Source: an uncultured virus (IMG/VR IMGVR_UViG_3300037524_001600)
Taxonomy: Duplodnaviria > Heunggongvirae > Uroviricota > Caudoviricetes
Reading direction: 5' to 3' (one strand)
DNA length: 64,000 bases
IMG/VR virus record: IMGVR_UViG_3300037524_001600
Shown here: piece after piece, positions 11,429 to 56,188 of the stretch
Numbering within the stretch: the stretch's first letter is position 1
How the letters are laid out: each line of letters begins with the position of its first letter
Notes under the pieces: model-generated
Database searches by the model: none
What the model was told of the DNA's origin: nothing
What the model saw: only the letters and a program-made list of their open reading frames with translations
Made by a program: the position numbers and the translations under genes

Positions 11429-11662
11429 TCAGGCGCACTGCGACTGCGGGACCAGCTCGCGGCATTCGGTGTGCGAGATGACCAGCTTGGAGCCGTCGTC
11501 GAACGCCCAGGTGTCTGTGGGCGACGGCGACGGGCAGGGGTCGATCCAGTTCGTCGACCACACCAGCGTGCCGTCCAGTTCCCCCGCCATCCTCTCGGCG
11601 AGGGCCCGGCTGAACTGGCCGTGCGGAAAGGCGCGGATCTCGATCTGTTTCGCGATACTCAT
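11429..11662 (-). CDS. Hypothetical protein
   Basis: AGGAG SD (leader CACAGGAGACGCAA). Confidence 0.6.
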   Translation of the reverse strand: MSIAKQIEIRAFPHGQFSRALAERMAGELDGTLVWSTNWIDPCPSPSPTDTWAFDDGSKLVISHTECRELVPQSQCA

Positions 11663-11686
11663 TTGCGTCTCCTGTGGAGTGGGTCG

Positions 11687-11736
11687 AAAAAATTCGGGAA
11701 CCCGAGAGACTCTTTACTGGAATCTCTCGGGTTCCC
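11687..11736 (-). terminator. Intrinsic terminator-like 14-bp hairpin plus T6
   Basis: GGGAACCCGAGAGA/TCTCTCGGGTTCCC perfect stem followed by GAATTTTTT on the minus strand. Confidence 0.6.
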
Positions 11737-12066
11737 CTCTGTCGCCAGAGGGTGCCTACGCGGCACGGGGAGGCTCCCCCGATCTGGATTACGCGCGGGC
11801 CGCGCTCTCGTCGCTATCTCTGTAACTGCGGGTACCGAACACCGGTGCCAGATCCACCGGATATCAGAGCCCGCGGCTGCCGCGCCTTTGAATGGCGCGC
11901 GGCGTCTCGCCTCCTGCAGACCCGACTATCAAGACAATCGACCGGGTCTGCTGCGTTATAGCGGGCCTTTTAAAGACGTGCCCAGGTCTTCACAGGAGTC
12001 ACCGCGGGAGGACCCCCTTTGCGAGAGGCCCTCCCGGCAGCCCCCTCTCGTGGAGGGGAGCTCCCG
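11737..12066 (-). ncRNA. Candidate structured intergenic RNA (serial hairpins, two pseudoknots)
   Basis: No credible ORF; many adjacent inverted repeats; loop-complementary 7-mer; one copy of the repeated pseudoknot. Confidence 0.5.
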
Positions 12067-12068
12067 CC

Positions 12069-12191
12069 TTACGACAGCCGACCGAGTGCCTGTAGGCACT
12101 CTCTCAGCGTGTAGAACTCGCCGGCGATGACGCCCGCGTCAGATACAGCTATCCACCTTGTGCCGTGCTCCGTGACCTTCCTGCATGCCAT
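12069..12191 (-). CDS. Small protein (40 aa, absent from ORF track)
   Basis: AGGAG SD directly behind the hairpin promoter; MACRKVTEHGTRWIAVSDAG...RLS*. Confidence 0.55.
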   Translation of the reverse strand: MACRKVTEHGTRWIAVSDAGVIAGEFYTLRECLQALGRLS

Positions 12192-12208
12192 CTTGCGTCT
12201 CCTGTGAC

Positions 12209-12251
12209 GATAGGCATCTGCCTATCATATAAGATGGCGCGATCAGCGCGG
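12209..12251 (-). promoter_or_regulatory. Class I (hairpin) putative phage promoter
   Basis: GCGCCATCTTATAT-GATAGGC AGAT GCCTATC; near-identical to the copy at 36041. Confidence 0.7.
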
Positions 12252-12479
12252 GCGAACGCCGCCCTCCGGCCACAGATCGTTGAGCACGATGGCCTCTCCC
12301 CGCCTTATCCAGGAGCTGTGTAGCACGCACTCCTCTCCCCCGGCCCGGTTCCTCACCACCAGGTGTATCAGAGCGCCGCTCCTGGTGGCGGCTCCGAGCT
12401 CTACCTCCAGGCTGAATGGTCCCGCGATCAGGGCCTCCTTCTGGGCGCGCGTGAGCCTGACGAACGTCTTCATCCCCAT
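12243..12479 (-). CDS. Hypothetical protein
   Basis: ORF track; GGAG upstream. Confidence 0.5.
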   Translation of the reverse strand: MGMKTFVRLTRAQKEALIAGPFSLEVELGAATRSGALIHLVVRNRAGGEECVLHSSWIRRGEAIVLNDLWPEGGVRPR

Positions 12480-12721
12480 ACAACATCCGCTCCCCTGTCG
12501 TGTGCGACCTTGACCACCTCCAGGATCTCTGCCGCCTCCTCCCTGCACCGCCCCCCGGCGTTGGCCAGTATTATCAGCCTTCTGCGCACCGCCGGCAGAG
12601 TCTCATTGGGCCACATGCCGGGAGACTCCGGCGCCGCCCCCATGGTCTCCAGCAGGCCATACGCCTGCAAGTCCGTCAGGGAGCGGCACTCGCCGGCGCC
12701 GTACGCGAAGAACGTAACCAC
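12470..12721 (-). CDS. Hypothetical protein
   Basis: ORF track; adjacent to upstream stop. Confidence 0.5.
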   Translation of the reverse strand: MVTFFAYGAGECRSLTDLQAYGLLETMGAAPESPGMWPNETLPAVRRRLIILANAGGRCREEAAEILEVVKVAHDRGADVVWG

Positions 12722-16180: not shown

Positions 16181-16257
16181 TGGTGGGCCGGGCGGGGCTC
16201 GAACCCGCGACCCGCGGATTATGAGTCCGCCGCTCTGACCGACTGAGCTACCGGCCC
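16181..16257 (-). tRNA. tRNA with anticodon CAT, probably tRNA-Ile2 (lysidine) rather than Met
   Basis: GGGCCGG TA GCTC AGTCGGTCA GAGC G GCGGA CTCATAA TCCGC GGGTC GCGGG TTCGAGC CCCGC CCGGCCC A CCA; paired 1:72 excludes initiator; C4:G69 and C5:G68 are TilS determinants. Confidence 0.92.
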
Positions 16258-17092: not shown

Positions 17093-17136
17093 GACAGACT
17101 TCTGTCTGTCTGATAAGATTACAGGATCAGCGCGGC
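17093..17136 (-). promoter_or_regulatory. Class I (hairpin) putative phage promoter (variant)
   Basis: CCGCGCTGATC..AATCTTATCA-GACAGAC AGAA GTCTGTC followed by AGGAG and ATG. Confidence 0.6.
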
Positions 17137-17171
17137 GGGGCGGCGCACCGGCGTGCCGCGCACGGGTGGGA

Positions 17172-17402: not shown

Positions 17403-17863
17403 GGCATCAGCACGATCCCGCGCATCCACGGGATCACCTCCACCTTCAGCCCCAGGATCCGGCGTCCGAATCCCACCTCGGCGTCGAACGTGAACCAGCC
17501 GGGCTCGGCCTCGTCCATGATCTGCGAGTAGTCCTCGGATCCCACCAGGAGACGCTGCCCCTCCCTGTCGAAGTTCTCCAGCAGGTCCTTTTTCTGCGCG
17601 AACACCCTCTCTATGAACTTCGGCGGGTCCACGACGTGTTTCGTGAAGGTGACCCTCTCCAGGAAGCTGTTCTCAAGCGCCCCGGTCCTCTGTAGGAACC
17701 ACCAGGCGGCGCGCTGCGCGGCCGACAGGCGACCCCGCGGCCTGAAGTGGTACGAGTCGGGCTGCAGCTCCCTCGCGATCCGGCTCTCGTGCCGTATGAA
17801 CTCCACCCTCTGTTTCACGCGTAGTCTCCTGAATGAAGATTCGGTGCGGACACATCGGCTCAT
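17399..17863 (-). CDS. Hypothetical protein (LLVGSEDY...LGLKVEVIPWMRGIVLMP)
   Basis: GGAGG SD; protein-like C-terminal motif. Confidence 0.65.
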   Translation of the reverse strand: MSRCVRTESSFRRLRVKQRVEFIRHESRIARELQPDSYHFRPRGRLSAAQRAAWWFLQRTGALENSFLERVTFTKHVVDPPKFIERVFAQKKDLLENFDREGQRLLVGSEDYSQIMDEAEPGWFTFDAEVGFGRRILGLKVEVIPWMRGIVLMP

Positions 17864-18240
17864 CGGGCCTCCCGCCGCTCCGTTTAGCAATCGACGACCA
17901 AGCATTTTCCGATTGATGGTCGGTACTACTCTTTCGCCGCCCTGCTCCGGCTTCCCACTGCCGTCTGCTCCTTCTCTCCATGTTTGGCGGGGCGCACTGG
18001 TTTCACTTCCCCGAAATTTACTTCCACGTCTGTTCCTGGTTCCGCCCGCGATTCATGACTTCGCTGCTGTGCATCCACCACGATGCTTAACTTCGGCGTC
18101 CACGCTTCCGCAGTGCTTGGGCCTCGGGGTGAGCGGGCCACGTTCCCCTTGCGAAAAGTAGGCTACTCGCTGCACCACCGCGCCTGTTCCTGTAACAGTG
18201 CCGGCATGTCCCTACGGTGGCATCCGCTTTCACCCGTGTG

Positions 18241-18354
18241 TCATCCCATGAAGAACAGGTAGCTGCGAACGGCCACGGACGCCCAGAACCCGGCGAACAC
18301 CGCCAGGGCGACGCTTAACGCGGCCGCCACGACCGACTCCATTGCGTGTTTCAT
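18241..18354 (-). CDS. Small membrane protein (37 aa, absent from ORF track)
   Basis: AGGAG SD; single hydrophobic helix. Confidence 0.5.
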   Translation of the reverse strand: MKHAMESVVAAALSVALAVFAGFWASVAVRSYLFFMG

Positions 18355-18374
18355 CCCGTCTCCTGCAAATCCGT

Positions 18375-18695
18375 CTACAGCACCTCACTGAGGATCCTCC
18401 AGGACACGAGTCCCGTGTCGCCGAAGATCATCACTACCGGTTTGCCGACCAGACCGTTGAAGTAGACGGTCCTCGCGTCCTGCATCAGCTGGTACAACGC
18501 CTCCCCCACGGGCCGCCCGCTGGGCGGGTGCAGCCAGTCGCCCGGTACCAGCGGCCAGAATTCCGACACGCTCCTGCCCTGTCCAGACAGGTAGAAGTAG
18601 AAGCCGAGCTTTCCGTCCTGCGACGTCACGACCGCCGTGGTGATCTTACCGTACACCGTCTCCATGCGCCCCCCAGACTCTAGTGCGCGGCTCAT
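18375..18695 (-). CDS. Hypothetical protein
   Basis: LMQDA...LVGKPV...SWRILSEVL; coupled start. Confidence 0.65.
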   Translation of the reverse strand: MSRALESGGRMETVYGKITTAVVTSQDGKLGFYFYLSGQGRSVSEFWPLVPGDWLHPPSGRPVGEALYQLMQDARTVYFNGLVGKPVVMIFGDTGLVSWRILSEVL

Positions 18696-18847
18696 TCCGG
18701 TTTCACCTCCAGCTGCCCGTCGATGTCCAGCACGCTGTCGCCACCCTCGGACAGGGACTGGAAGTGGGCCGCCAGCAGCGCGAACGCCTCATCGACGTTC
18801 TCCGCGTCCATCTTGAAGCTACCCTCGAACACGAACACCATCTCCAT
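18692..18847 (-). CDS. Small acidic protein (51 aa, absent from ORF track)
   Basis: GAGGTG SD; MEMVFVFEGSFKMDAENVDEAFALLAAHF... Confidence 0.55.
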   Translation of the reverse strand: MEMVFVFEGSFKMDAENVDEAFALLAAHFQSLSEGGDSVLDIDGQLEVKPE

Positions 18848-18856
18848 CACCTCGCG

Positions 18857-18885
18857 AAAAAAGACCCCGGGCGGAGTGCCCGGGG
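18857..18885 (-). terminator. Intrinsic terminator
   Basis: CCCCGGGC ACTCC GCCCGGGG TCTTTTTT on the minus strand. Confidence 0.75.
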
Positions 18886-18898
18886 CGGGGTTGTGGGA

Positions 18899-19170
18899 GA
18901 GCCTTTTATACTGGACATGCTCAGGTCCGTTGCGCCGGAGTCTTCTGATACTCCGTCCGTGTCATGCGAGGCCCATCCGGTCTCCCGGGCAGGACCTCCG
19001 GCCGCAGCGGTAGCCGTTGCTGGGAGCCTTTTTACGACATGCTCGGGTCGGGGCCTTTTTGACGGCCGACGTGCCCAGGTCGGCTGGGGCGGAGCCGGAG
19101 AGGTCCCCTGACTCCACCCGGATTGGTCCGGCCGGGATGACATCCCTCTCGGGAAATGGTCCCGGCCCGC
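18899..19170 (-). ncRNA. Candidate structured RNA with three copies of a small pseudoknot
   Basis: Intergenic; copies at 18899-18928, 19024-19050 and 19051-19084 plus further hairpins; ends at a terminator. Confidence 0.6.
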
Positions 19171-19175
19171 CGTCG

Positions 19176-19739
19176 TCAGGCGGCCTTGGCGGCCTCTGCG
19201 GCGGCCTTCTCGGCGGCGCGCTTAGCGCGGTACGCCGCGAGGGCCTCCTGCGCCTTCTGGTTGACGACCTTCTTCTCGATGCCGGCGCCGTACGCGATCT
19301 GGATCTGCTCCTTATGCGAGAGGACCCACTCCGCCAGCTCGGCGTTGTTGTCCGAAGCGCCGAGCAGGGTGTTCCTGGCGGCTGTGGCCTTCTCCTCCTC
19401 CGTCATACGCTTCACGGTGGGCCAGCGGAACACCTCCAGGATGACGTCCGCGTGCTCGGAGACGAAGGCGAACTTCGGGTCGTTGGCCTCCTTGATCGCC
19501 TTGAGCGACTTGGCGAGCTTGTTCTGCTCGACCTTGGTGACCCGGCGGATCGTGCCGATGTCGAATGCGTTCTCGACGACGTCGCGATTGTCCAGGAGCC
19601 ACGTGGCAAGCTCGGTGTTGCCCTCGGTCAGGGGGCGGAGCGCCTCCAGGATTTTCGGGCGGCGCAGGTACTCGTTGGCCTCGGCCTTCGTGTTGAACTG
19701 CTTCCCGTCATCCGTGATAAATACCGATCTCACTTCCAT
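19176..19739 (-). CDS. Conserved hypothetical protein (FITDDGKQFNTKAEA...)
   Basis: Strong codon bias; AGGA SD; internal repeat 'NxELAxW'; Ala/Lys-rich tail. Confidence 0.8.
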   Translation of the reverse strand: MEVRSVFITDDGKQFNTKAEANEYLRRPKILEALRPLTEGNTELATWLLDNRDVVENAFDIGTIRRVTKVEQNKLAKSLKAIKEANDPKFAFVSEHADVILEVFRWPTVKRMTEEEKATAARNTLLGASDNNAELAEWVLSHKEQIQIAYGAGIEKKVVNQKAQEALAAYRAKRAAEKAAAEAAKAA

Positions 19740-19803
19740 TTATTGCGTCCTTTTGTTGTGACCGCCTGGTCGCCGGCGGCACGCGCCCTTCCAACCCGTT
19801 TCC

Positions 19804-19823
19804 GGGTTAACTCAACGGGTTCC
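19804..19823 (-). promoter_or_regulatory. Class II putative phage promoter
   Basis: Minus strand GGAACCCGTTGAGTTAACCC upstream of 19176..19739. Confidence 0.65.
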
Positions 19824-20066
19824 GGCAGCTGCACCGCGGTGCGCCGGCCCGCCTCTGCCGGGCACGAGGTGACGCCGGGCGGGGCGCGCCGCCCCTCCGG
19901 AGTCCCCCGTGCCGCCCGCGCCCGCGGTGCCACGCCGGGCGCGTCTGCCGCGGCCGGGGGATCGTCCCCGGCGGGCCGTGCCGGGTCGCACCTGTGGCAC
20001 ACCCAGCCCATTCTCAGATGATTCTCTCCTGTCCTGTACGTCCCCCTCTCCGATTGTGTCTTGCAC

Positions 20067-20321
20067 CTACTGCACCACGTCACCGCCGGGCTCCTTTTCG
20101 CTCAGATGCGCCTCGAACTTCTCCTTGAACTCGGCGGCGATATCCTTCCACGCGCTCGCGGATATCAGCTGATTCACGGCCAGCCTGGACTCGTCGGTCG
20201 CCAGCACAGCGTCGGCGTAGGTCTCCAGCGCGGCCATGACGAACAGCTGCACCAGAGCGCCCCTCCTGGAGTACGTCATCAGCTCCGTGACGAACTCGAC
20301 GTTGCTCAGTCTCTTCTTCAT
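20067..20321 (-). CDS. Hypothetical protein (SNVEFVTELM..S..GALVQLFVM)
   Basis: ATGA-coupled ORF. Confidence 0.65.
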   Translation of the reverse strand: MKKRLSNVEFVTELMTYSRRGALVQLFVMAALETYADAVLATDESRLAVNQLISASAWKDIAAEFKEKFEAHLSEKEPGGDVVQ

Positions 20322-21316
20322 TCGAAAATCTCGTCGATGACCTTCGCGATGTATGCCACGTCAGCCCTCCTGGGGTCCTCCGCCCTGAGCGCGTTTATGA
20401 GCTGGTGCATGTACGCCTGATCCACCCCTATCAGCTGTTCCCCGAGCACGGAGATATCCTCCAGATCCAGCTTGGACACCTGCAGCATCATCTTGAGGGC
20501 CTGTCCCGCCGTTATCCTCCAGCCCCTGGCTATGAATTTACGCATCCGGAACACCGACGCCAGCGGGTACAGGCTCCCCGTGTACACCAGGGTTTTGGAG
20601 AGTATCGCCGCGAGGGCCTCCCGCGGCACCTCGATCCTGTCCGCCCTGTAATCGTACCAGCACCGGCAGTGGTCGTAGTCGTAATTGTCGAGGATCTTGT
20701 CCGGCTCCCCGTAGAATCGGATGACGATCTGCACCCTGTCGGACAGAGTAACGGCATTCTCGGAGAAAAATATCGGTCTGTACTTCCCGCGATCCTCCTT
20801 GATCTTCTCCACGAACATCTCCGCGCTGCGGATGGGGTCGGACGCCACCATATCGTACAACTCGTCCGTATGGCGCAGTGTCTCCACGAACGCGTCGGCG
20901 GCTCTCTCCGGGGCGGATTCGAAATAGGCGTACTGCCCGGCGCCCTCGGAGGCCACTCCGGCGCTCTTCATATAGATGACGATCCTGTCCTCCAGCTCTC
21001 CGCGGATGTTCTCCCTGGTTTCCTCCCTAATCACCGGATTATGCGGCAGCGCTACGGCGGACGGCAGCTTCCCGTTATCCGCGTTGAACTTGTCCACGTA
21101 GTACCCGGCCACGAGCCTCGCGGACTCCTTGGTGCGCATGTACACGTCGTAATCGTTTACGCGCTCCTCCGACAGCATGCTGACAATGCACCCGCCGGAC
21201 ACGATCGCGTCATCGCGCACGGCGTCGCGAACGATCTCGCTCTCGATGGACTCTATCCACTCGTCTAGCTTGCGTCTGATCACCCTCTTTATGGTGCTCT
21301 GTTTCATTCCAGGCAT
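20318..21316 (-). CDS. Conserved phage protein with a nucleotidyltransferase-like motif
   Basis: IVSGGCIVSML...VNDYDVY (GG..DxD), SENAVTLS, YDYDHC, GSLYPL. Confidence 0.6.
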   Translation of the reverse strand: MPGMKQSTIKRVIRRKLDEWIESIESEIVRDAVRDDAIVSGGCIVSMLSEERVNDYDVYMRTKESARLVAGYYVDKFNADNGKLPSAVALPHNPVIREETRENIRGELEDRIVIYMKSAGVASEGAGQYAYFESAPERAADAFVETLRHTDELYDMVASDPIRSAEMFVEKIKEDRGKYRPIFFSENAVTLSDRVQIVIRFYGEPDKILDNYDYDHCRCWYDYRADRIEVPREALAAILSKTLVYTGSLYPLASVFRMRKFIARGWRITAGQALKMMLQVSKLDLEDISVLGEQLIGVDQAYMHQLINALRAEDPRRADVAYIAKVIDEIFE

Positions 21317-32694: not shown

Positions 32695-34959
32695 TCAGCA
32701 GAAGCAGTACTCGGACTGCCGTATCAGCCCCACGTCCAGCGAGCCCACGTCGAGGCCGGAGGCGTCCGTCCGCATGTCACTGAGGAGCGCCCCGAGCGGG
32801 TCCATCTGGTATAGCTGGACGAACGTGTCTCTTATCAGCGGATACAGGGCCTGCATGTCGGCCAGCAGGCACCCGTACGAGTCGTGCACGGTGGTCACCG
32901 GGAAGTCCGCCTGGCACACGGTGAGCATCAGGTGCGCCGCGTCGAGGCTGTGTATCGCGTTGGGGCTGGCTCCTTGCGACTGTTTCCCCTTGGACGGCTT
33001 GAGTTCCTCCACGAAGCAGACCGCCAGCTGCAGCGTGTTGGAATAGTAGCCGGTGCTCAGCCTGGGGCCGGCGGGCGGCCCGTACTGCACGTACAGCTTC
33101 TTCGTGATCCCCTCTGTGTAGTGCTGCACGACCGGGAAGTGCGTCAGCGGGACCACCCAGGAGAGGAATCTGCCCTCACGCTCTGCCTCTCGGCCCGCCC
33201 GCTCCAGCTTGGCCAGCAGCTGCATCGGCCTCCTAAGGGCCTCCCGGCACGTGGTGTACACCTCCCGGCCCAGGAACGCACCCCACCTGTGCTCCATGTG
33301 GTACAGCAGCTCGATCCCGTGCTTCCTGGAGTCGTCGATGATCTGCTGCCCCAGGCCGTACGCCGTGCCCCCGTAGGGGATCGTCATGGTGTTCCTCTTG
33401 ACGATCTTCCTACGGTGGGCGGCGTCTTTTATTCGGCACCAGAACACGGGTGCGGCCATGGCCATCAGCTCCGCGTTCTCGTGCTTCAGCCGGTGGATGT
33501 CACCGGCGAGCCTGCTGCGCCTGTCGGATTTGGGCTCGCATTCGTTGATCTCCTTTTTGAGTTCCACGATATTGTCTATGAGCCGCTCGCAGGCGGCCTT
33601 CTCCTCCTCGGTCATGCCGGACACGTCCTTCTCCAACTTGGCCCAGACGTGGTCGGCGATGTACTTGTACAGATCCCCCGGAAGATCCAGCGGGACCAGG
33701 TTGACGTGCGGTGCCGTGACCTCATCCCTCGTCAGGGCCGCCAGGTGCTGGCTGCCGTTGTTCGACCCATCGATGAACACCTCGAGCCCGCTCTCGTACA
33801 TGTACTCGGCGCCTTCCGCCCAGTGCGAGGGCAGGTAGTGGCCCCTGTGCGAGGCCTGCCAGTCCCGGAATGACTTCAGCTCGAAGCACGTGGCGAGGAA
33901 CTGCCAGGGGTGGTCCGCGCGCATCCACCCCTGATTAACCTTGGGATTCTCAGCGTAGGACAGCAAGATCTCCTCGTTGTCGGCGGCCCACTCCGCCCTG
34001 TCCTTCAGCGGCAGTTTGTCAGTCTTGAGCCTGTCGATGCGGCCCGAGTCTCCCGCCCAGGAGGATGCCAGAGACACCATTAGCCAGAAGAAGCCGGACC
34101 TCCCTATCGGCTTCCTGTCGGCCCTCAGCAGCAGGCCCCTGGCCACGTCGTTGCCCTGCTCGTGCAGATAGGCGGTCGCCGGGTATTTCCTACCGCGGAA
34201 GTCGTAGTAGTACAGGTGGTAGAACACCTTGTCCACGAACCGCGAGGCTATGTCGATCACCGCCCTGGCCTCCCTCAGCTTGGTGTTCCTGGCCTCCGGA
34301 TTGGTCTGCTCCCAGATGTCGGAGAATGCCTCGACCTTATTCCTCAGGGCCCACATTTGGATATTCAGGACGTGCTCGTTTACCGTCCACCCGATGCGCT
34401 GGGCCCTGTTCAGGCACTCGAAGACCATCGGGTGGCTCTGCGGCGACAGGGCATCCAGTACGTCCTTGCTGCCCGTCTTCACCATGTTCCACCCGGTCTC
34501 GTGCCTGGAGCCGCGCCACTGCCCGTACGGCCTGATGTTCGGGAGCTTCTCGATCGAGCCGGGCTCCACGCTGTTCCAGAGCTGGCATATCCCGTCGTCA
34601 TCTAGCACCTGCACCAGGTAGGCATTGTGTCCCTTCTGGCCGTGGCCCATCACGACCTGCAGAAAGCCCAGCTCCTCAAAGGAGTACAGCAGGAAGGCGC
34701 CGGTCTTGGCCGCCAGCGACGAGTCCTTCTTCAGTCTGAACTTCCCCCTTATGGTGTGACCGATGGCACAGATCAGTTCCGTCAGGTAGATCGTGTGCCC
34801 GCCGAAGCCCTTCTTCTGGCGCGTGTAGAGGTACACCACGGATATCAGGTGGTCCGTGTACTCCCTGACGTCATGTCGGAGGAGGTACTTTAGAGGATTC
34901 TGCGGAGATATCTCCGTCCTCAGCCTTGCTCGGATGCTTTCCACCAGAATTTCTCTCAT
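32695..34959 (-). CDS. T7/T3-like single-subunit DNA-directed RNA polymerase (RNAP-2, 754 aa)
   Basis: DFRGRKY, PWQFLA, motif A DGSNNGSQH, DLY, motif B RKIVKRNTMTIPYG, PNAIHSLDA, motif C VHDS. Confidence 0.95.
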   Translation of the reverse strand: MREILVESIRARLRTEISPQNPLKYLLRHDVREYTDHLISVVYLYTRQKKGFGGHTIYLTELICAIGHTIRGKFRLKKDSSLAAKTGAFLLYSFEELGFLQVVMGHGQKGHNAYLVQVLDDDGICQLWNSVEPGSIEKLPNIRPYGQWRGSRHETGWNMVKTGSKDVLDALSPQSHPMVFECLNRAQRIGWTVNEHVLNIQMWALRNKVEAFSDIWEQTNPEARNTKLREARAVIDIASRFVDKVFYHLYYYDFRGRKYPATAYLHEQGNDVARGLLLRADRKPIGRSGFFWLMVSLASSWAGDSGRIDRLKTDKLPLKDRAEWAADNEEILLSYAENPKVNQGWMRADHPWQFLATCFELKSFRDWQASHRGHYLPSHWAEGAEYMYESGLEVFIDGSNNGSQHLAALTRDEVTAPHVNLVPLDLPGDLYKYIADHVWAKLEKDVSGMTEEEKAACERLIDNIVELKKEINECEPKSDRRSRLAGDIHRLKHENAELMAMAAPVFWCRIKDAAHRRKIVKRNTMTIPYGGTAYGLGQQIIDDSRKHGIELLYHMEHRWGAFLGREVYTTCREALRRPMQLLAKLERAGREAEREGRFLSWVVPLTHFPVVQHYTEGITKKLYVQYGPPAGPRLSTGYYSNTLQLAVCFVEELKPSKGKQSQGASPNAIHSLDAAHLMLTVCQADFPVTTVHDSYGCLLADMQALYPLIRDTFVQLYQMDPLGALLSDMRTDASGLDVGSLDVGLIRQSEYCFC

Positions 34960-36040: not shown

Positions 36041-36082
36041 GATAGACTTCTGTCTATCATATAAGATGGCGCCATTTGCGCG
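36041..36082 (-). promoter_or_regulatory. Class I (hairpin) putative phage promoter
   Basis: GCGCCATCTTATAT-GATAGAC AGAA GTCTATC at the junction between the late and early modules. Confidence 0.7.
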
Positions 36083-36117
36083 TTTTTTACCCCGCTCTCG
36101 GCGGGGCTTCCGGTTCC

Positions 36118-40346: not shown

Positions 40347-40931
40347 TTACCCCGTCTTCTTTCCCCAGAGAAACTCGGCCTTCCCGGACCCCTCGTAGAC
40401 GTGCTCGAAGGAGGTGTCGGATGGATCTATATTACGTATCTCGGTCTTGGAGGTGAACAGCTGCGTTATGCCGTCCAGATCGGCCATCGGGCTGGCGCAG
40501 GCCACCACGGCGCGCACCTCCCCGGCCTCGGCCGTGTCTACCTCGTAGGAGAAGCTGTCGGCCTTGCCCTTGTACAGCAGTATCAGCTCCTCCTCCGCCG
40601 CGCTGACTAGCGGCGTGCCGGCGTCCGTGACGCCCATGTACACCTCCACGTCCTTCCCGACGATGTTGCCGAATACCGACACCATCGCGTAGCCCGGATC
40701 GGCGAGGACCACCCTGTAGATCTCCCTGTCAACGGACGTGGAGATGTGCGGGGGATCCAGCGAGACGATGCGGCCGTCGTGCGTGAACAGGCGCTCCGTG
40801 GGCAGCCCCGGGTCCACGATCAGCGATCTAAAGTAGTTGGTGGCCCTGTAGTCCCCCACCCGCAGGAGGAAGAAGACCTCGTAGTGGTCGGAGGCCAGTA
40901 TATCCAGTACGGATTGGGCTATGCTTATCAT
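40347..40931 (-). CDS. Minor tail/hub protein (DUF2163-like)
   Basis: YKG..D, CASPMADLD, DPSDTSF..V...LWGK; position before the tip gene. Confidence 0.65.
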   Translation of the reverse strand: MISIAQSVLDILASDHYEVFFLLRVGDYRATNYFRSLIVDPGLPTERLFTHDGRIVSLDPPHISTSVDREIYRVVLADPGYAMVSVFGNIVGKDVEVYMGVTDAGTPLVSAAEEELILLYKGKADSFSYEVDTAEAGEVRAVVACASPMADLDGITQLFTSKTEIRNIDPSDTSFEHVYEGSGKAEFLWGKKTG

Positions 40932-41554
40932 GGCAGCTCGTACACGATCTTGGGGACCCGCTCCACCATGCGGATGGCCCCGTTGTCCATCAGGATGCCG
41001 TCCACGTAGGACATGCCGATCACGCTGTCTCCGTCCAGAAACACCTCCATCCTCACGTCGTCCCTGTAGACTATCGCCTGGTTTATCACATCGGTCATCA
41101 GCGGCGGGAACACCTCGATGACCTGCTCTCCCTGCGCCGCCTCCACGTCGTGCGTCAGCATGTACACCTTGGTGTGATTTGCGAAGCGCAGGAACGTTCC
41201 CATGGGTATCAGACCGGTGACCTCGCTTATCTTCAGGCTGCTGTCCCCCGCGTAGCCCAGCACGGCCGTCAAGGTGTCCTCCGCGGTCCTGGCCATCAGG
41301 ACTCCGTAGTTCTGCGGCACCATTATCTGGAAGGACGAGGTGACGCCCTTCTCCACGAGGAACGCGAACAGGTCGTTCGCCTCCCTGTACAGCGGCTCCA
41401 CGTTCGTTTCCATCTCCCAGCGTTGCGGCGGACGCCGCGCCGCGTACCTGCTGAGAGACATAGAGTCCGACAGGTACACCGGCGTGTTGCTCCTGACAGT
41501 CATCGGGGCCACGAACCTGGCCAGCACGTCGTCGCCCCTCAGTATCCCGTACAC
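40928..41554 (-). CDS. Distal tail protein-like, paralog 1 (no C-terminal extension)
   Basis: YGIL..FVAP...SDS.SL...QRWE, GTFLRFANHTKVY, FPPL, DGILMD. Confidence 0.65.
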   Translation of the reverse strand: MYGILRGDDVLARFVAPMTVRSNTPVYLSDSMSLSRYAARRPPQRWEMETNVEPLYREANDLFAFLVEKGVTSSFQIMVPQNYGVLMARTAEDTLTAVLGYAGDSSLKISEVTGLIPMGTFLRFANHTKVYMLTHDVEAAQGEQVIEVFPPLMTDVINQAIVYRDDVRMEVFLDGDSVIGMSYVDGILMDNGAIRMVERVPKIVYELP

Positions 41555-41564
41555 GGCGCCTCCG

Positions 41565-42155
41565 TCAGAACTGCTCCGGGACCACCTCGATCTGCAGGCG
41601 CAGCTTCTCGGTGATCCCGGCCTTGTTGATGCGCCTGTAGTTAACCGGCAGCTGCTTCAGCGCCAGCTCCACCTCGTACCGGTCCCTCTGCTGCCTGTAG
41701 CACAGCATGAAGTCGGAGCGGGTGTACAGGAGCAGGATGTCGTCCACGGGATTGGTTATGCTCCTCACGTCGTCGTGCACCAGCAGCGGCGAGAACATGT
41801 TCCCGAAGGCCGTGGTGACGTACTGCGACACGGTGGAGTCGTACCAGTACAGCCTGGCGCCGCCGTACTGGCAGTACGCCACGGCCACGTTCATGTTCCT
41901 GTCGAACGCCAGAGACAGCTCCGTGAGGCCCGGTATATTCAGCAGACTGTGCATCTCCCCCGTGGTCAGGTTCCGGATCTTCACCAGCCCGTTGTCGTAC
42001 CAGCAGCGCCAGTCGTGCAGGTCTATGCCCTGCGAGGGGTCCGCCAGCGACACGCCGCCCCTGGCCAGATCCACCAGCAGCTTCCTGTCCTGGTGCTCCG
42101 GCGACAGGACCGTCCCCAGCACCGGGGAGGTGGACTCCCTGCTATCGGGGATCAT
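41565..42155 (-). CDS. Virion structural/tail-associated protein
   Basis: GGVSLADPSQG, LSLAFDRNM, LYWYDS, YRQQRDRY; tail module context. Confidence 0.6.
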   Translation of the reverse strand: MIPDSRESTSPVLGTVLSPEHQDRKLLVDLARGGVSLADPSQGIDLHDWRCWYDNGLVKIRNLTTGEMHSLLNIPGLTELSLAFDRNMNVAVAYCQYGGARLYWYDSTVSQYVTTAFGNMFSPLLVHDDVRSITNPVDDILLLYTRSDFMLCYRQQRDRYEVELALKQLPVNYRRINKAGITEKLRLQIEVVPEQF

Positions 42156-43174
42156 CAGGGGTACCTGCCCCAGGACAGGCGGTACACCATCGTGAACGAC
42201 CTGGTGTCATCCTTCGGGACCCCGTTGTCCCACACGAACTGATAATGGCCCATGCCGTTGCCCAGGTACAGGGCGCCTATCAGCCCGCCGGTGACGTTCC
42301 CGCTCGCCGTGCCGAGCGAGACGCGCACGTCCCTATAGAACGAGTCCTGTATGTAAGAGCCCTCCAGGGCGCCTCCGTCTGGCAGATCCGCATGCGCCGT
42401 GTACGTCGGGCCCGCGGCGTTCAAGGCGCCCAGCGTGGATCCGGTGGCGCAAACCATGCCCCAGTAGTTTACGTAGCCCAGCATGGGATGCGTGGCCAGG
42501 GGCCTCGGCGCGCACCTGATGACCGGGGGCGGCCAGGTGTTCCGCCCGGCCCCGTATACGTCCCCGGCCGTGGTCAGCCCGGTGGCCCTGCCGACGCCCG
42601 TTATCTGGGTGCCGGACACATTTATCGAGAAGTTCGTGTCGCCCAGCGGCGGGTACAGCCGGAACTTGTAGTACACGTCCAGCTGGTCTATTGCCGTCAC
42701 GGGGAACGTGGTGGGGTTCCCGCTGCCATCCTTGACCAGCGCCCTGGAGAACAATGTGGTGCCGTCCCAACCGGCGCCGACCTCTGCGAGGTTGCCCACC
42801 ACAGAACCCTGCGGAAACGACCGCGGGTGCTCGTACGTGATGTGGTACGGGGAGGTCTGCAGGAACGTGTAGCCGCCGCCCGACGCCACCGCGTTCGTGT
42901 GCGCCACCTTCGTCTGCAGCGTGGTGTCCGTTATGGCCGGCGTCGCATTCCCCGTGCCGACGGAGATGAAGTTGATGATCGTGGTGTTATAGTCGTCCGA
43001 GTGCGTCCCCAACCTGTTCAGCCCGGCGTTGGTGATCACGTTATCGAACCAGCCGCTGTCCCTGACGGTGCCGTCGGGTCTCCTGGCGATCAGCCTGTAC
43101 TGCCCACCGCCGATCCTGGGGCCAAGGCCCAAGAGATCTATCTCGGCATACCTTCTCTTCAGGATTTCAAACAA
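42155..43174 (-). CDS. Tail-associated structural protein, paralog A
   Basis: GWFDNVITNAGL, VGTGNATP, GNLAEVG, LFSRAL, DQLDVYY, SWGRYP. Confidence 0.7.
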   Translation of the reverse strand: MFEILKRRYAEIDLLGLGPRIGGGQYRLIARRPDGTVRDSGWFDNVITNAGLNRLGTHSDDYNTTIINFISVGTGNATPAITDTTLQTKVAHTNAVASGGGYTFLQTSPYHITYEHPRSFPQGSVVGNLAEVGAGWDGTTLFSRALVKDGSGNPTTFPVTAIDQLDVYYKFRLYPPLGDTNFSINVSGTQITGVGRATGLTTAGDVYGAGRNTWPPPVIRCAPRPLATHPMLGYVNYWGMVCATGSTLGALNAAGPTYTAHADLPDGGALEGSYIQDSFYRDVRVSLGTASGNVTGGLIGALYLGNGMGHYQFVWDNGVPKDDTRSFTMVYRLSWGRYP

Positions 43175-44219
43175 TTGTCGATTCTCCCGATATTACCGTG
43201 GCCCCCGTCGGACCGTACTCTTCCACGTCGTAGACGGAGAGATCCACGTAGTTGATGGTGGTGTAGGACGCCCCGGACAGTAGCACGGCGTGCCCTATCT
43301 GGTACTCCTCCGTGTCGTACTCGTACAGATCCACATAGGCTATCGTCGTGTACGAGGCCCCGGACAGCAGCACCGCGGTGTGCGGCTGGTACTCCTCTGT
43401 ATCGTACAGGGACAGATCCTTGTAGACGATCATCACCGTGGAGGCCCCGGAAACCAGCGACGCCGACACGACCGTGTAGTCCTCCTGGTTCGGGAACCAC
43501 TGGTACACGGCCATGGATGGCAGGTCGGTCCTCACGCCGTTCGTGTCCACCGCCACCGTGTACGGGGTGGACGTGAATACCGCCGGCAGGAGCTCGTCCG
43601 TGTCCCTGGGGATGCTCTCCACTAGAACCAGCTCCCCGGGATCCATCAGGATGCCGTCCGTGTACCGCATGCCCTGCACGGTGTCCCTGTCGTAGAAGCA
43701 CTCCATGACCACGTCGTCCCCGTGGTACATGTAGGTCTCCGCCAGATCCGCCCGCAGCGGCGGGAACACGCTCACGGCCCCGGACCCGTCGAAGTCCGAC
43801 AGAGTCACGTACACCTTCGAGTGGTTCCCGAACCGCAGGAACGTCCCACGCGGCATGAACCCGGAGTACGCCGGGGCGGACACCTGGGACTCCCCGGCCA
43901 GTCCCCCGTCCGTCAGCAGCACCTTTGACAGGGAGCCCGTCCTGCGGAGGATCACCCCGACGCTCTGCGGCACCAGCACCTCCGTCGGGGAGTGGGTGCC
44001 CTTCGTGACGAGGCTCTTCATGAGCTTGTGGCCGCCGTCGGACATCGGCACGATCCCCGCCGATATCTCCCACCGCTGCGCGGCCACGCTCCTGGTGCGG
44101 CGCAGCAGGGACAGGGAGTCCGAGGGGGTGACCGGGACGTTGCTCCTCACGGCGACAGGCGCCGCGAACACCGCTATCAGCTCCCGGTCCTCTCCGTCCA
44201 GAATTCCGTAGAGGGCCAT
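43167..44219 (-). CDS. Distal tail protein-like, paralog 2, with ~29-aa C-terminal repeats
   Basis: Same core as 40928..41554 plus LLSGASYTTIxYVDL repeats. Confidence 0.7.
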   Translation of the reverse strand: MALYGILDGEDRELIAVFAAPVAVRSNVPVTPSDSLSLLRRTRSVAAQRWEISAGIVPMSDGGHKLMKSLVTKGTHSPTEVLVPQSVGVILRRTGSLSKVLLTDGGLAGESQVSAPAYSGFMPRGTFLRFGNHSKVYVTLSDFDGSGAVSVFPPLRADLAETYMYHGDDVVMECFYDRDTVQGMRYTDGILMDPGELVLVESIPRDTDELLPAVFTSTPYTVAVDTNGVRTDLPSMAVYQWFPNQEDYTVVSASLVSGASTVMIVYKDLSLYDTEEYQPHTAVLLSGASYTTIAYVDLYEYDTEEYQIGHAVLLSGASYTTINYVDLSVYDVEEYGPTGATVISGESTIV

Positions 44220-44220
44220 C

Positions 44221-56172: not shown

Positions 56173-56188
56173 CTGCTACTCCGATTTT

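What the first reader, a model, noticed from the sequence alone, without database searches (positions are those of the whole stretch)
18899..19084. Small H-type pseudoknot repeated four times with compensatory changes (three copies here, one at 11963-11990)
Seen (minus strand): GGAC-CUGAGCAU-GUCC-AGUAU-AAAAG-GCUC (18928-18899); CGAC-CCGAGCAU-GUCG-U-AAAAAG-GCUC (19050-19024); GCCGAC-CUGGGCAC-GUCGGC-CGUC-AAAAAG-GCCC (19084-19051); AAGAC-CUGGGCAC-GUCUU-U-AAAAG-GCCC (11990-11963). Stem 1 varies but always pairs. Loop GAGC always goes with 3' GCUC and loop GGGC with GCCC, so stem 2 covaries across an A-rich linker. All copies are intergenic, in the transcribed sense and upstream of an intrinsic terminator. 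Known: stem-loop plus A-rich linker plus loop pairing is the architecture of preQ1-I aptamers, tmRNA PK1 and type III antitoxin repeats, but the sequence matches none that I recognise. Inference: a multivalent protein- or ligand-binding RNA (sponge or antitoxin mimic), a nuclease block, or an antitermination element.
Basis: partly seen in the sequence, partly recalled or inferred. Interest (0 to 1): 0.78.

Follow-up and report, generated by a model that had tools for sequence, protein, structure and literature searches.

The report
Widespread coremin-like phage RNA pseudoknot
The four repeats are real copies of a tiny knotted RNA fold that many unrelated phages carry between genes; it is in no RNA catalogue, resembles a plant-virus element that stops RNA-degrading enzymes, and its job in phages is still untested.

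Summary
Observation confirmed. All four copies sit exactly where stated on the minus strand. Their 14-nt core occurs 4 times against 0 in 100 shuffles.

They belong to a large family of ~29-nt H-type pseudoknots in uncultured and named phages: n-GAC-CY-GRGC-AN-GUC-n'-(n)UAAA[CU/AG]-GCYC.
- Stem 2: 56 of 93 unique viral hits pair at all three free positions, against 13-20 with slid partners and 16 of 120 in bacterial background.
- G.U outnumbers A.C 15 to 3, so the pairing is in RNA, on this strand.
- A fourth stem-1 pair, not selected for, covaries in 54 of 68.

Rfam has no match, and five literature searches found no description. Earlier notes of this scan met what reads as the same motif on other phage DNA.

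The common form shares GUUAAACU with the coremin Xrn1-resistant element of plant RNA viruses. The window's copies are an AAAAG subtype.

Family members start 6-7 nt after stop codons, about 5 nt before tRNAs, or before scaffold genes. None was found in E. coli genomes or enterobacterial phages.

Best reading (0.4): a mechanical barrier to processive RNA decay, probably RNase J. Here it lies in two long 3'UTRs ahead of terminators. Function untested.

The parts
19051..19084 (-). Pseudoknot copy A: stem 1 of 6 bp (GCCGAC/GUCGGC), loop CUGGGCAC, 10-nt linker CGUCAAAAAG, stem 2 GGGC:GCCC. It abuts copy B with no spacer.
   Evidence: Sequence read; exact core match. The covariance model aligns it poorly (13.4 bits) because of its long linker.
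19024..19050 (-). Pseudoknot copy B: stem 1 CGAC/GUCG, loop CCGAGCAU, linker UAAAAAG, stem 2 GAGC:GCUC. A small hairpin follows at 19022-19005 (CAGC...GCUG).
   Evidence: 41.3 bits.
18899..18928 (-). Pseudoknot copy C: stem 1 GGAC/GUCC, loop CUGAGCAU, linker AGUAUAAAAG, stem 2 GAGC:GCUC. It ends 12 nt before the terminator stem.
   Evidence: 38.3 bits.
11963..11990 (-). Pseudoknot copy D: stem 1 AAGAC/GUCUU, loop CUGGGCAC, linker UAAAAG, stem 2 GGGC:GCCC. A hairpin follows after 12 nt, at 11950-11917.
   Evidence: 42.6 bits.
18856..18886 (-). Intrinsic terminator closing the 3'UTR that holds copies A-C: a 9-pair stem (8 G-C) at 18886-18864, then UCUUUUUU.
   Evidence: The Rfam E-value scan matches only terminator-like models here.
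19176..19739 (-). Upstream ORF of 187 aa, function unknown (weak KorA-like hit below the Pfam cut-off). Copies A-C lie in its 3'UTR (stop at 19176; copy A starts 91 nt later).
   Evidence: Contigs from 4 of 4 laid RNA libraries cover this ORF together with copies A and B.
11696..11736 (-). Strong intrinsic terminator (17-pair stem plus U-run) closing the structured untranslated stretch that holds copy D.
   Evidence: The stretch 12215-11690 folds with z = -6.9.
12069..12191 (-). Putative 40-codon small ORF with an AGGAGA ribosome-binding site. Copy D lies in the untranslated stretch behind it, 78 nt after its stop.
   Evidence: Coding status was not tested.

Best explanation
Each copy is a member of a widespread, uncatalogued family of ~29-nt phage RNA pseudoknots. 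The fold is a 4-bp stem 1 (n-GAC/GUC-n'), a 2-nt first loop (CY), a 4-bp stem 2 (GRGC:GCYC), a 2-nt junction (AN) and a 7-nt A-rich third loop that would lie in the groove of stem 1.

I read it as a compact mechanical barrier that stays folded on the message and stops enzymes that thread RNA from the 5' side. The main candidate enzyme is the 5'-3' exoribonuclease RNase J. On this reading the RNA behind the knot outlives the RNA in front of it.

In most phages this would mark off and stabilise the downstream segment, such as scaffold and capsid messages or tRNA precursors. In this phage the copies lie in two long structured 3'UTRs ahead of strong terminators. There the predicted products are small stable RNAs running from a knot to the terminator hairpin, comparable to the subgenomic RNAs that flaviviruses make with tandem xrRNAs.

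Shown here: the fold, its covariation, its distribution and its positions.
Inferred: that it is a barrier, the direction of blocking and the enzyme.
For: 1. The fold is real and under selection.
- Stem 2 pairs fully in 56 of 93 unique viral hits. Shuffled tails give 27.0 +/- 2.9 (0 of 2000 reach 56); slid partners give 13-20.
- The same pattern gives 16 of 120 in bacterial genome background.
- Ten or more pair types occur, and G.U outnumbers A.C 15 to 3.
- The fourth stem-1 pair, which I did not select for, is paired in 54 of 68: CG 22, AU 10, GC 10, UA 8, UG 3, GU 1.

2. It resembles an element shown at the bench to stop 5'-3' machines.
- With only the 5' half fixed, 86 of 109 unique contexts carry a recognisable 3' half; 73 of those 86 read ...UAAACU-GCUC.
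- A typical member reads GAC-CUGAGCAU-GUC-GUUAAACU-GCUC.
- Coremin is GUC-CGAA-GAC-GUUAAACU-AC as printed in PMC10520033: same stem apart from a flipped middle pair, and the same 8-nt linker.
- Coremin stalls Xrn1 and scanning ribosomes and promotes frameshifting. A Watson-Crick variant uses a GAG:CUC stem 2 (passages read).
- An xrRNA fold blocks bacterial RNase J1 in vitro (PMC5760640, passages).

3. Placement keeps it folded and ahead of RNAs needed in quantity.
- The knot starts 6 nt (18 cases) or 7 nt (12 cases) after the stop codon among 106 members with an upstream ORF. None starts at 2-4 nt. The control is flat, with 1 and 2 of 87.
- That spacing lies just outside a terminating ribosome (inference from the known ribosome footprint; recalled).
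- A same-strand tRNA begins 3-11 nt downstream in 9 of 77 members; no flank holds an antisense tRNA (0 of 77).
- 7 of 25 downstream ORF fragments are head scaffolding proteins and 1 is a major tail protein. 5 of 29 upstream fragments are minor head proteins.
- Staphylococcus phage B166, Lactobacillus phage phi jlb1 and Bacillus phage poppyseed all place it between a portal or minor-head gene and the gene pair that ends in the major capsid gene.

4. Host range.
- Consensus BLAST against 50,697 named phage records gives 121 and 143 records. Hosts include Staphylococcus, Bacillus, Lactobacillus, Streptococcus, Rhizobium, several Rhodobacterales, Acaryochloris and one Mycobacterium.
- No Escherichia, Klebsiella, Pseudomonas, Salmonella or Vibrio phage appears among the organism names the tool listed. 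At least 2,297 records of those genera are in the collection.
- 0 of 5,426 complete E. coli genomes hold a match covering 80% of the query.
- Most beta- and gamma-proteobacteria have only RNase E/G and no RNase J (PMC3997798, passage).

5. In this window every copy is followed by a hairpin within 0-12 nt, as coremin requires.
Against: - No bench result exists for any member.
- The downstream hairpin (hp2) that coremin needs for Xrn1 resistance is not a family feature. The 36 nt downstream fold at -4.9 kcal/mol against -5.6 upstream, with median z -0.19 against shuffles (n = 138).
- The loop does not fit the coremin loop rule (YGAD or YGNNAD). The window's copies carry AAAAG where coremin has AAACU.
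- In this window the copies precede terminators, so no gene lies behind them to protect. Homologues of the upstream gene in four related phages are followed by a plain terminator and no knot.
- The RNase J link is correlative. Among bacterial genomes holding a copy, 9 of 10 encode RNase J above the curated cut-off, but so do 7 of 10 genomes with chance pattern hits. That test does not discriminate.
- The one exception is a 1.0-Mb Gammaproteobacteria MAG with a perfect copy and no RNase J.
- The BLAST survey sees only near-consensus copies.
- Two 4-bp stems form a weak thermodynamic obstacle; any barrier effect must come from tertiary structure that I could not model.
- The scaffold-gene contexts are partly one conserved head module, so they are not independent cases.
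Confidence: 0.4

Rival explanations
1. 3'-end cap. The knot protects the RNA in front of it from 3'-5' exonucleases. It would act after the transcript is cut just behind it (by RNase P where a tRNA follows, or by another endonuclease), or as a second line behind a terminator hairpin.
For: - A tRNA starts only 3-11 nt behind the knot in 9 of 77 members, so RNase P would leave a very short 3' tail.
- The knot sits 6-7 nt behind stop codons.
- In this window the copies lie in the 3'UTR of an ORF that all four laid RNA libraries cover, ahead of a terminator.
- Relatives have only the terminator there, so the knots are an addition to a 3'UTR.
Against: - In the head modules the upstream genes (portal, minor head) are the ones needed in small amounts, and the downstream ones (scaffold, capsid) in large amounts.
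- The 3' side of the fold is a bare 4-bp stem 2 without a stabilising loop, the weaker face of an H-type knot (inference).
- 3'-5' exonucleases are universal, which does not explain the absence from E. coli and enterobacterial phages.
Confidence: 0.2
2. Ribosome-directed element. Parked at the entrance of a ribosome that is reading the stop codon, the knot would stop post-termination ribosomes from sliding on, insulating neighbouring genes, or it would tune termination.
For: - Sharp spacing of 6-7 nt from the stop codon: 30 of 106, none at 2-4 nt. This is the geometry of frameshift and read-through stimulators.
- Coremin blocks scanning ribosomes and promotes frameshifting (PMC10520033 and PMC10321173, passages).
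Against: - The four copies in this window are 78 nt or more from any plausible stop codon.
- Members between tRNA genes have no ORF in front.
- Spacers of 6, 7 and 8 nt put the knot in all three frames, so no extension product is conserved.
- Ribosomes are universal, yet the motif was not found in E. coli.
- The spacing is equally explained by a need to stay folded combined with tight gene packing.
Confidence: 0.12
3. Protein-binding RNA or released decoy. The conserved loop and linker bases would be a recognition site for a host or phage protein, such as a nuclease or a defence protein. Several copies, or knots excised from tRNA arrays, would act as a sponge.
For: - Near-invariant unpaired bases across phages with 31-66% G+C.
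- Three copies within 186 nt here; two copies per locus in L127, L193, L121, L326 and L328.
- Between two tRNAs the whole spacer is the knot plus 3 and 5 nt, so tRNA processing would release it as a free ~37-nt RNA.
Against: - No co-occurring protein was looked for or found.
- Most loci hold a single copy.
- The fixed spacing from stop codons points to action in cis on the message.
Confidence: 0.12
4. Processing signal. An endonuclease would recognise the knot and cut beside it, punctuating long phage transcripts.
For: - Boundary positions between genes and tRNAs.
- Contigs of two RNA libraries end at 18929 and 18925, at the 5' edge of copy C (18928), with no loose ends. The tool rates such coincidences as a weak hint only.
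Against: - The other two libraries end at 18887 and 18952.
- Contigs cannot show RNA ends.
- No nuclease is known that reads such a fold.
Confidence: 0.08
5. Small-molecule riboswitch of the preQ1-I architectural type, or a cis-acting antitermination RNA that controls the terminators downstream.
For: - Same architecture as preQ1-I: hairpin, A-rich tail, tail pairing with the loop.
- Copy C ends 12 nt before a terminator.
Against: - No Rfam match even at E<=10.
- Family members sit between tRNAs, after stop codons and before scaffold genes, at variable distance (12-188 nt) from the next start codon, with no recurrent expression platform.
- Terminators are not a family feature.
Confidence: 0.05
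6. DNA-level site: a promoter or operator.
For: - Intergenic, sense-oriented, in front of genes and tRNAs.
- The record of Staphylococcus phage B166 annotates a BPROM-predicted promoter over it.
Against: - Stem-2 covariation includes G.U but almost no A.C (15 against 3), which fits only RNA of this strand.
- The spacing between the two halves varies (8-13 nt in this window).
- The B166 promoter is a software prediction only.
Confidence: 0.03

Closest known systems
Coremin motif / xrRNA-C of beny-, cucumo- and other eukaryotic RNA viruses (Dilweg, Olsthoorn and co-workers; PMC6546385 listing only; PMC10520033 and PMC10321173 passages read)
   Same: - A three-pair G/C-closed hairpin followed by GUUAAACU.
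- Loop bases that interact with the 3' end of that linker.
- Total size of 20-30 nt.
- Location in untranslated or intergenic RNA, sometimes in tandem.
- The common phage form shares the 8-nt linker letter for letter.
   Different: - The middle stem pair is flipped (GAC/GUC instead of GUC/GAC).
- The loop has 8 nt, CYGRGCAN, instead of YGAD or YGNNAD.
- Stem 2 is four regular pairs, not a non-canonical contact with CUAC.
- The obligatory second hairpin is not conserved.
- The hosts are DNA phages of bacteria, which lack Xrn1.
- The copies in this window read AAAAG instead of AAACU.
Watson-Crick coremin variant xrRNA-WCC (selected in vitro, plus Sanxia picorna-like virus 5; PMC10321173, passages read)
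   Same: A regular antiparallel stem 2 between loop and linker, GAG:CUC in the natural example. It is needed for Xrn1 resistance and confirmed there by compensatory mutants.
   Different: - WCC has 3 pairs and a single essential G as the first loop.
- The phage fold has 4 pairs, CY as the first loop and two extra junction bases (AN).
preQ1-I riboswitch aptamer (Rfam RF00522)
   Same: Architecture only: a short hairpin, an A-rich tail in the groove of stem 1, and the tail end pairing with the loop.
   Different: - No model match at gathering level or at E<=10.
- No association with queuosine genes.
- No expression platform.
- It also occurs between tRNA genes and in 3'UTRs.
Type III toxin-antitoxin RNA repeats (ToxI-like) and phage pseudo-ToxI mimics (recalled; no paper read)
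   Same: Small pseudoknotted RNA units, several copies, with a terminator behind them in this window.
   Different: - No regular tandem array.
- No ToxN-like gene behind the terminator.
- The family mostly occurs as single copies inside operons.
Intercistronic stabiliser hairpins and REP elements of bacterial operons (recalled)
   Same: Structured elements just behind stop codons inside operons that create segments of different stability.
   Different: Those are plain hairpins, species-specific, and protect the upstream RNA from 3' exonucleases. This element is one conserved knotted fold shared by phages of several phyla.
Theta (minimal HDV-like) ribozymes next to phage tRNAs (PMC10879173; listing and abstract only)
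   Same: A small knotted RNA placed directly beside phage tRNA genes.
   Different: The whole spacer available between two tRNAs here is about 34 nt, with no room for the nested double pseudoknot of HDV-like ribozymes. No cleavage is known or predicted.

Membership tests
Coremin / xrRNA-C | Hairpin 1 with loop consensus YGAD (4 nt) or YGNNAD (6 nt) | tested here: not met
   The loop has 8 nt, CYGRGCAN. The second base is Y and the G comes third. The papers report that some 7- and 8-nt loops also work in the BNYVV context, so this does not exclude a like mechanism.
Coremin / xrRNA-C | Conserved spacer GUUAAACUAC behind hairpin 1 | tested here: inconclusive
   The common phage form shares GUUAAACU; 73 of 86 recognisable 3' halves read AAACU. 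All four window copies read AAAAG, and GCYC replaces AC.
Coremin / xrRNA-C | Second hairpin directly behind the spacer, required for Xrn1 resistance | tested here: not met
   Family: the 36 nt downstream fold at -4.9 against -5.6 kcal/mol upstream, median z -0.19, n = 138. In this window all four copies do have a hairpin within 0-12 nt.
Coremin / xrRNA-C | Stalls a 5'-3' exoribonuclease in vitro | not testable with these tools
   Needs an RNase J1 or Xrn1 digestion assay.
xrRNA-WCC | Watson-Crick stem 2 between the loop of hairpin 1 and the end of the spacer | tested here: met
   56 of 93 fully paired against 13-20 with slid partners; many pair types.
xrRNA-WCC | A single essential G as the first loop | tested here: not met
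   The first loop is CY in all members aligned. These positions were fixed by my search pattern. They are free in the 36 members found with the 3' half alone, which also read CC or CU.
preQ1-I riboswitch (RF00522) | Match to the family covariance model | tested here: not met
   No hit at gathering score on the window or at E<=10 on 18840-19190.
preQ1-I riboswitch (RF00522) | 5' leader of queuosine or preQ1 genes with an expression platform | tested here: not met
   Contexts are 3'UTRs here, and tRNA arrays, post-stop positions and scaffold genes elsewhere.
Type III antitoxin RNA (ToxI-like) | Regular tandem repeats followed by a terminator and a ToxN-family endoribonuclease gene | tested here: not met
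   Copy starts are 34 nt (A to B), 122 nt (B to C) and about 7 kb (C to D) apart. The ORFs 18850-18692, 18695-18375 and 17905-17399 have no Pfam, PHROG or PADLOC hit.
tmRNA pseudoknot 1 | Part of a tmRNA gene | tested here: not met
   ARAGORN finds only tRNA-Met at 16181-16257.
Recoding (frameshift or read-through) stimulator pseudoknot | 5-9 nt behind a shift site or leaky stop, with a conserved extension frame | tested here: not met
   The spacing is met in the family (6-7 nt). However, spacers of 6, 7 and 8 nt give no common frame, and the window's copies have no stop codon nearby.

The most novel reading that the evidence does not exclude
DNA phages carry their own class of exoribonuclease-resistant RNA, related to or convergent with the coremin element of plant and fungal RNA viruses and aimed at bacterial RNase J. 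In this phage a triple array in the 3'UTR of a well-covered early message would yield knot-to-terminator RNAs. Like flaviviral subgenomic RNAs, these would stall and soak up the host's 5'-3' decay enzyme. RNase J also serves type III CRISPR defence in staphylococci (PMC6447361; search listing with title and abstract start only).
Probability: 0.2. Interest if true: 0.9.

Novelty: new variant of a known kind. Interest (0 to 1): 0.72.

Why it matters
Exoribonuclease-resistant RNAs are so far known only from RNA viruses of eukaryotes. A 29-nt fold shared by phages of Firmicutes, alpha-proteobacteria, cyanobacteria and actinobacteria, and placed by a strict rule at gene and tRNA borders, would have three consequences.

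- It would be the first such device in prokaryotic viruses.
- It would be a general answer to how phages set different message levels inside one operon, for example few portal proteins and many scaffold and capsid proteins.
- It would be a small portable RNA-stabilising tag for bacteria that have RNase J.

Cultured systems exist in which the idea can be tested directly: Bacillus megaterium phages, Ruegeria phage DSS3phi2 and Lactobacillus phages. The family is also missing from Rfam, so genome annotation currently passes over it or labels it as a predicted promoter.

Tried and rejected
- Megablast and blastn of the locus against named phages found no match.
- Four relatives found through the upstream protein (48-60% identity, L006-L009) have only a plain terminator at the syntenic spot and no model hit. 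Synteny therefore gave no homologues.
- The search of earlier findings by sequence returned nothing. Only the word searches gave leads.
- A sequence-blind structural descriptor is not enriched in the window: 9 against 5.5 +/- 2.5.
- RNase J in bacterial genomes that carry a copy: 9 of 10 against 7 of 10 controls, so not discriminating. The 14-genome control line does not say which genomes pass the cut-off.
- BLAST with copy D (GGGC subtype) gave only two weak hits.
- RNA libraries. All runs are kept as contigs, so starts, ends, strand and levels cannot be read.
  - I looked for extra cover of the 3'UTR relative to the ORF. One of four runs shows it (X5: 16.1 against 6.1), which is not usable.
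  - I looked for cover beyond the terminator. There is little or none in 18850-18300, but a part without cover proves nothing with this tool.
  - Neither observation is used as evidence.
- A subfamily GACCTTACCATGTCC... on 4-6 kb contigs matched my first pattern but lacks stem-2 pairing. It was set aside as unrelated.
- Rows dropped before counts:
  - L082 (the near-identical record of this phage) from all family counts.
  - Bacterial loci L130-L251.
  - Members with under 100 nt of upstream sequence.
- Papers. The csRNA catalogue of viral RNAs (PMC10690425) and the Minerva preprint (10.64898/2026.09.22.753630) do not mention the motif in the passages I searched. I did not open their supplements, which could list it.
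- No structure prediction or complex prediction was run; no RNA 3-D tool is on hand.
Full report
**What is there**

The window is a 62% G+C tailed phage with all genes on the minus strand. It encodes a T7-type RNA polymerase, a replication module and a 3000-aa tape measure.

A 14-nt core, GACCYGRGCAYGTC, occurs four times without mismatch and never in 100 shuffles. The 3' block AAAAGGCYC occurs five times against 0.65 expected. Four of those are these copies; the fifth lies in coding sequence without a hairpin.

The bare shape without the sequence is not unusual: 9 hits against 5.5 +/- 2.5. Within one genome, two GAGC:GCUC and two GGGC:GCCC copies could be a single event. The case for a pseudoknot therefore had to come from elsewhere.

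**A large family**

- A near-identical IMG/VR record (G001) has the same four copies.
- Four relatives found through the upstream protein (48-60% identity) lack the motif.
- I scanned IMG/VR with a pattern that leaves three stem-2 positions free on both sides.
- Of 93 unique motif strings, 56 pair at all three free positions. Shuffled tails give 27.0 +/- 2.9 (0 of 2000 reach 56). Slid partners give 13, 15, 14 and 20.
- The same pattern in 596 Gb of bacterial genomes gives mostly chance hits, 16 of 120 fully paired. This serves as a background.
- Pair types seen with the fixed C:G pair include GAGC:GCUC, GGGC:GCCC, AAGC:GCUU, CAGC:GCUG, UAGC:GCUA, UGGC:GCCA, CGGC:GCCG, GAAC:GUUC, CAAC:GUUG and AGAC:GUCU.
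- G.U occurs in 15 unique strings and A.C in 3. The pairing is therefore in RNA of this strand, not in DNA.
- In an alignment of 68 members (A1), the base before GAC pairs with the base after GUC in 54 of 68, with six pair types. I did not select for that pair. A fifth pair forms in only 20 of 68.

**Anatomy**

The fold is n-GAC / CY / GRGC / AN / GUC-n' / (n)UAAAxx / GCYC. That gives two 4-bp stems, loops of 2, 2 and 7 nt, and about 29 nt in all.

Fixing only the 5' half showed that the window's AAAAG linker is the minority form. Of 109 unique contexts, 86 have a recognisable 3' half: 73 AAACU, 9 AAAAG and 4 others. The distance from GUC to stem 2 is 8 nt in 72 of the 86. Fixing only the 3' half showed that the last loop base is free, with A, C, G and U all seen.

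In the window, copies B and D have the standard 8 nt. C has 11 and A has 13, and A also has a 6-bp stem 1.

**Catalogues and papers**

- Rfam 15 gives only tRNA-Met at gathering score on the window.
- It gives only terminator look-alikes at E<=10 on 18840-19190.
- It gives nothing at E<=1 on 11650-12480.
- Five full-text searches found no description of the motif in phages.
- Two large computational surveys do not mention it in the passages I searched; I did not open their supplements.
- Earlier notes of this scan describe, on other phage DNA, a 27-29-nt 'boundary pseudoknot' that reads like this motif, and name coremin as the closest known element. Their sequences are not shown and my two sequence look-ups found nothing, so identity is not shown.

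I took the coremin lead from those notes and checked it against the papers. Coremin is printed as GUCCGAAGACGUUAAACUAC (PMC10520033). A common phage member reads GAC-CUGAGCAU-GUC-GUUAAACU-GCUC. The stem differs by one flipped pair and the 8-nt linker is identical. A Watson-Crick coremin variant uses GAG:CUC as stem 2 (PMC10321173).

The differences are real:
- an 8-nt loop that breaks the YGAD / YGNNAD rule;
- four regular pairs in stem 2;
- no conserved second hairpin;
- DNA phages as hosts.

**Where the family sits**

- Members are intergenic and in the sense of their neighbours.
- Among 106 members with an upstream ORF, the knot begins 6 nt (18) or 7 nt (12) behind the stop codon, 48 lie within 6-11 nt, and none lies at 2-4 nt. 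A control from the opposite side is flat.
- In 9 of 77 non-redundant members a same-strand tRNA starts 3-11 nt behind the knot. In 5 of 77 a tRNA ends 2-8 nt before it. No flank holds an antisense tRNA.
- Distances to the next start codon range from 12 to 188 nt.
- Of 25 downstream ORF fragments, 7 are head scaffolding proteins, 1 a major tail protein, 1 an endonuclease, 1 a thymidylate synthase, 3 match families of unknown function and 12 match nothing.
- Of 29 upstream fragments, 5 are minor head proteins. These are partly one conserved head module.
- Three named phages of different types place the knot between a portal or minor-head gene and the gene pair ending in the major capsid gene: Staphylococcus B166, Lactobacillus phi jlb1 and the Bacillus podovirus poppyseed.
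- In B166 the site carries only a software-predicted 'promoter' label.

**Hosts**

- BLAST of two consensus forms against 50,697 named phage records found 121 and 143 records. Hosts are Staphylococcus (83-88), Rhizobium, Bacillus, Lactobacillus, Streptococcus, several Rhodobacterales, Acaryochloris, Anoxybacillus, one Mycobacterium and two crAss-like phages at weak scores.
- No Escherichia, Klebsiella, Pseudomonas, Salmonella or Vibrio phage appears among the organism names the tool listed. At least 2,297 such records are in the collection.
- None of 5,426 complete E. coli genomes has a match over 80% of the query.
- A review states that most beta- and gamma-proteobacteria have only RNase E/G (PMC3997798).
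- That Firmicutes, actinobacteria, cyanobacteria and alpha-proteobacteria have RNase J is my recollection, supported by two titles.

The direct test on bacterial genomes holding a copy does not discriminate. 9 of 10 have RNase J against 7 of 10 controls. The exception is a small Gammaproteobacteria MAG.

**This window**

- Copies A-C lie in the 330-nt stretch between the stop of a 187-aa ORF of unknown function (19739-19176) and an intrinsic terminator (18886-18864).
- Copy D lies in a 526-nt stretch that folds with z = -6.9, behind a putative 40-codon ORF and ahead of a 17-pair terminator.
- Every copy is followed by a hairpin within 0-12 nt.
- Nineteen of 24 listed public runs holding part of 17500-20500 are RNA libraries.
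- In the four RNA libraries laid, contigs cover the ORF and copies A and B in 4 of 4, and copy C in 1 of 4.
- Being contigs, they show neither ends nor levels. Two of them stop at 18929 and 18925, next to the 5' edge of copy C, which is at most a weak hint.

**Mechanism**

The fold is built like knots that resist force from the 5' side: stem 1 braced by an A-rich loop, and a short first loop. It is kept just outside the terminating ribosome and stands in front of RNAs needed in quantity.

It also shares its linker with an element shown to stop Xrn1 and ribosomes. An xrRNA fold stops bacterial RNase J1 in vitro (PMC5760640). The family was not found where RNase J is absent.

I therefore favour a barrier to 5'-3' decay (0.4). 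In this phage the predicted products are knot-to-terminator RNAs.

The main rival is a 3' cap for the upstream RNA (0.2). It fits the 3'UTR setting here and the 3-11-nt gap before tRNAs, but not the head-module contexts or the host range.

Other readings:
- ribosome insulation: 0.12
- protein decoy: 0.12
- processing signal: 0.08
- riboswitch or antitermination: 0.05
- DNA site: 0.03

Nothing has been tested at the bench.

**Verdict**

The element is a real, selected RNA fold of a widespread family absent from Rfam and from the papers I could search.

By resemblance it is a new variant of the coremin type of resistant RNA. Membership is not established, because two defining features fail.

Noticed in passing
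window 12209-12262, 17093-17146, 36041-36094 (read on the minus strand): Three copies of a 54-nt repeat, each with a perfect palindrome (GATAGnCnnCTGnCTATC) next to ATCTTATATGAT. Two are followed by the same ribosome-binding context and a start codon. This is a candidate promoter-operator of the phage, possibly for its own T7-type polymerase.
   Followed up: partly
window 11690-12215, minus strand: A 526-nt stretch between a putative 40-codon ORF and a 17-pair terminator folds far better than shuffles (z = -6.9, 0 of 100 as good). It has no Rfam match at E<=1. It may be a long structured 3'UTR or a non-coding RNA of its own; copy D is only a small part of it.
   Followed up: partly
window 19792-19830, minus strand: Contigs of all four laid RNA libraries begin within 8 nt of each other (19792-19800), at the 3' arm of an 8-pair hairpin (AACCCGUU...AACGGGUU) about 60 nt before the ORF start at 19739. 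This is a possible transcript start or processing site; contigs cannot prove it.
   Followed up: no
window 19176-19739, minus strand: A 187-aa protein with a Lys/Ala-rich tail. It has no PHROG, PADLOC or PDB match and only a sub-threshold KorA-like Pfam hit. It is conserved with its terminator in four low-G+C phages, and all four laid RNA libraries cover it.
   Followed up: partly
window 61293-63998 and 32695-34959, minus strand: Besides the complete T7-type RNA polymerase (754 aa), a second ORF of 901 aa or more, lying just ahead of the scaffold and capsid genes and cut by the window end, has a partial RNA-polymerase match (phrog_414, residues 344-444). It may be a virion-associated polymerase.
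   Followed up: no
window 47173-56175 and 40928-47395, minus strand: A 3000-aa tape measure protein. Also several diverged paralogous tail-fibre genes with internal 84-87-nt repeats (repeat families D1-D8, D12 and D14).
   Followed up: no
loci L010, L016, L020, L022, L028, L040, L047, L062, L065, L071, L078, L084, L101, L102, L105: One conserved string, GACCTTACCATGTCC...GACAAAAGGCAAG, on mostly 4-8 kb viral contigs matched my first search pattern but has no stem-2 pairing. It is probably coding sequence of small phages and unrelated to the family.
   Followed up: no
L399 (an IMG/VR record labelled GVMAG): The 3' half GTCGTTAAAAGGCTC also occurs on a contig labelled as a giant-virus MAG. Earlier notes of the scan mention similar knots beside tRNAs of giant viruses. 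I did not check whether the 5' half is present.
   Followed up: no
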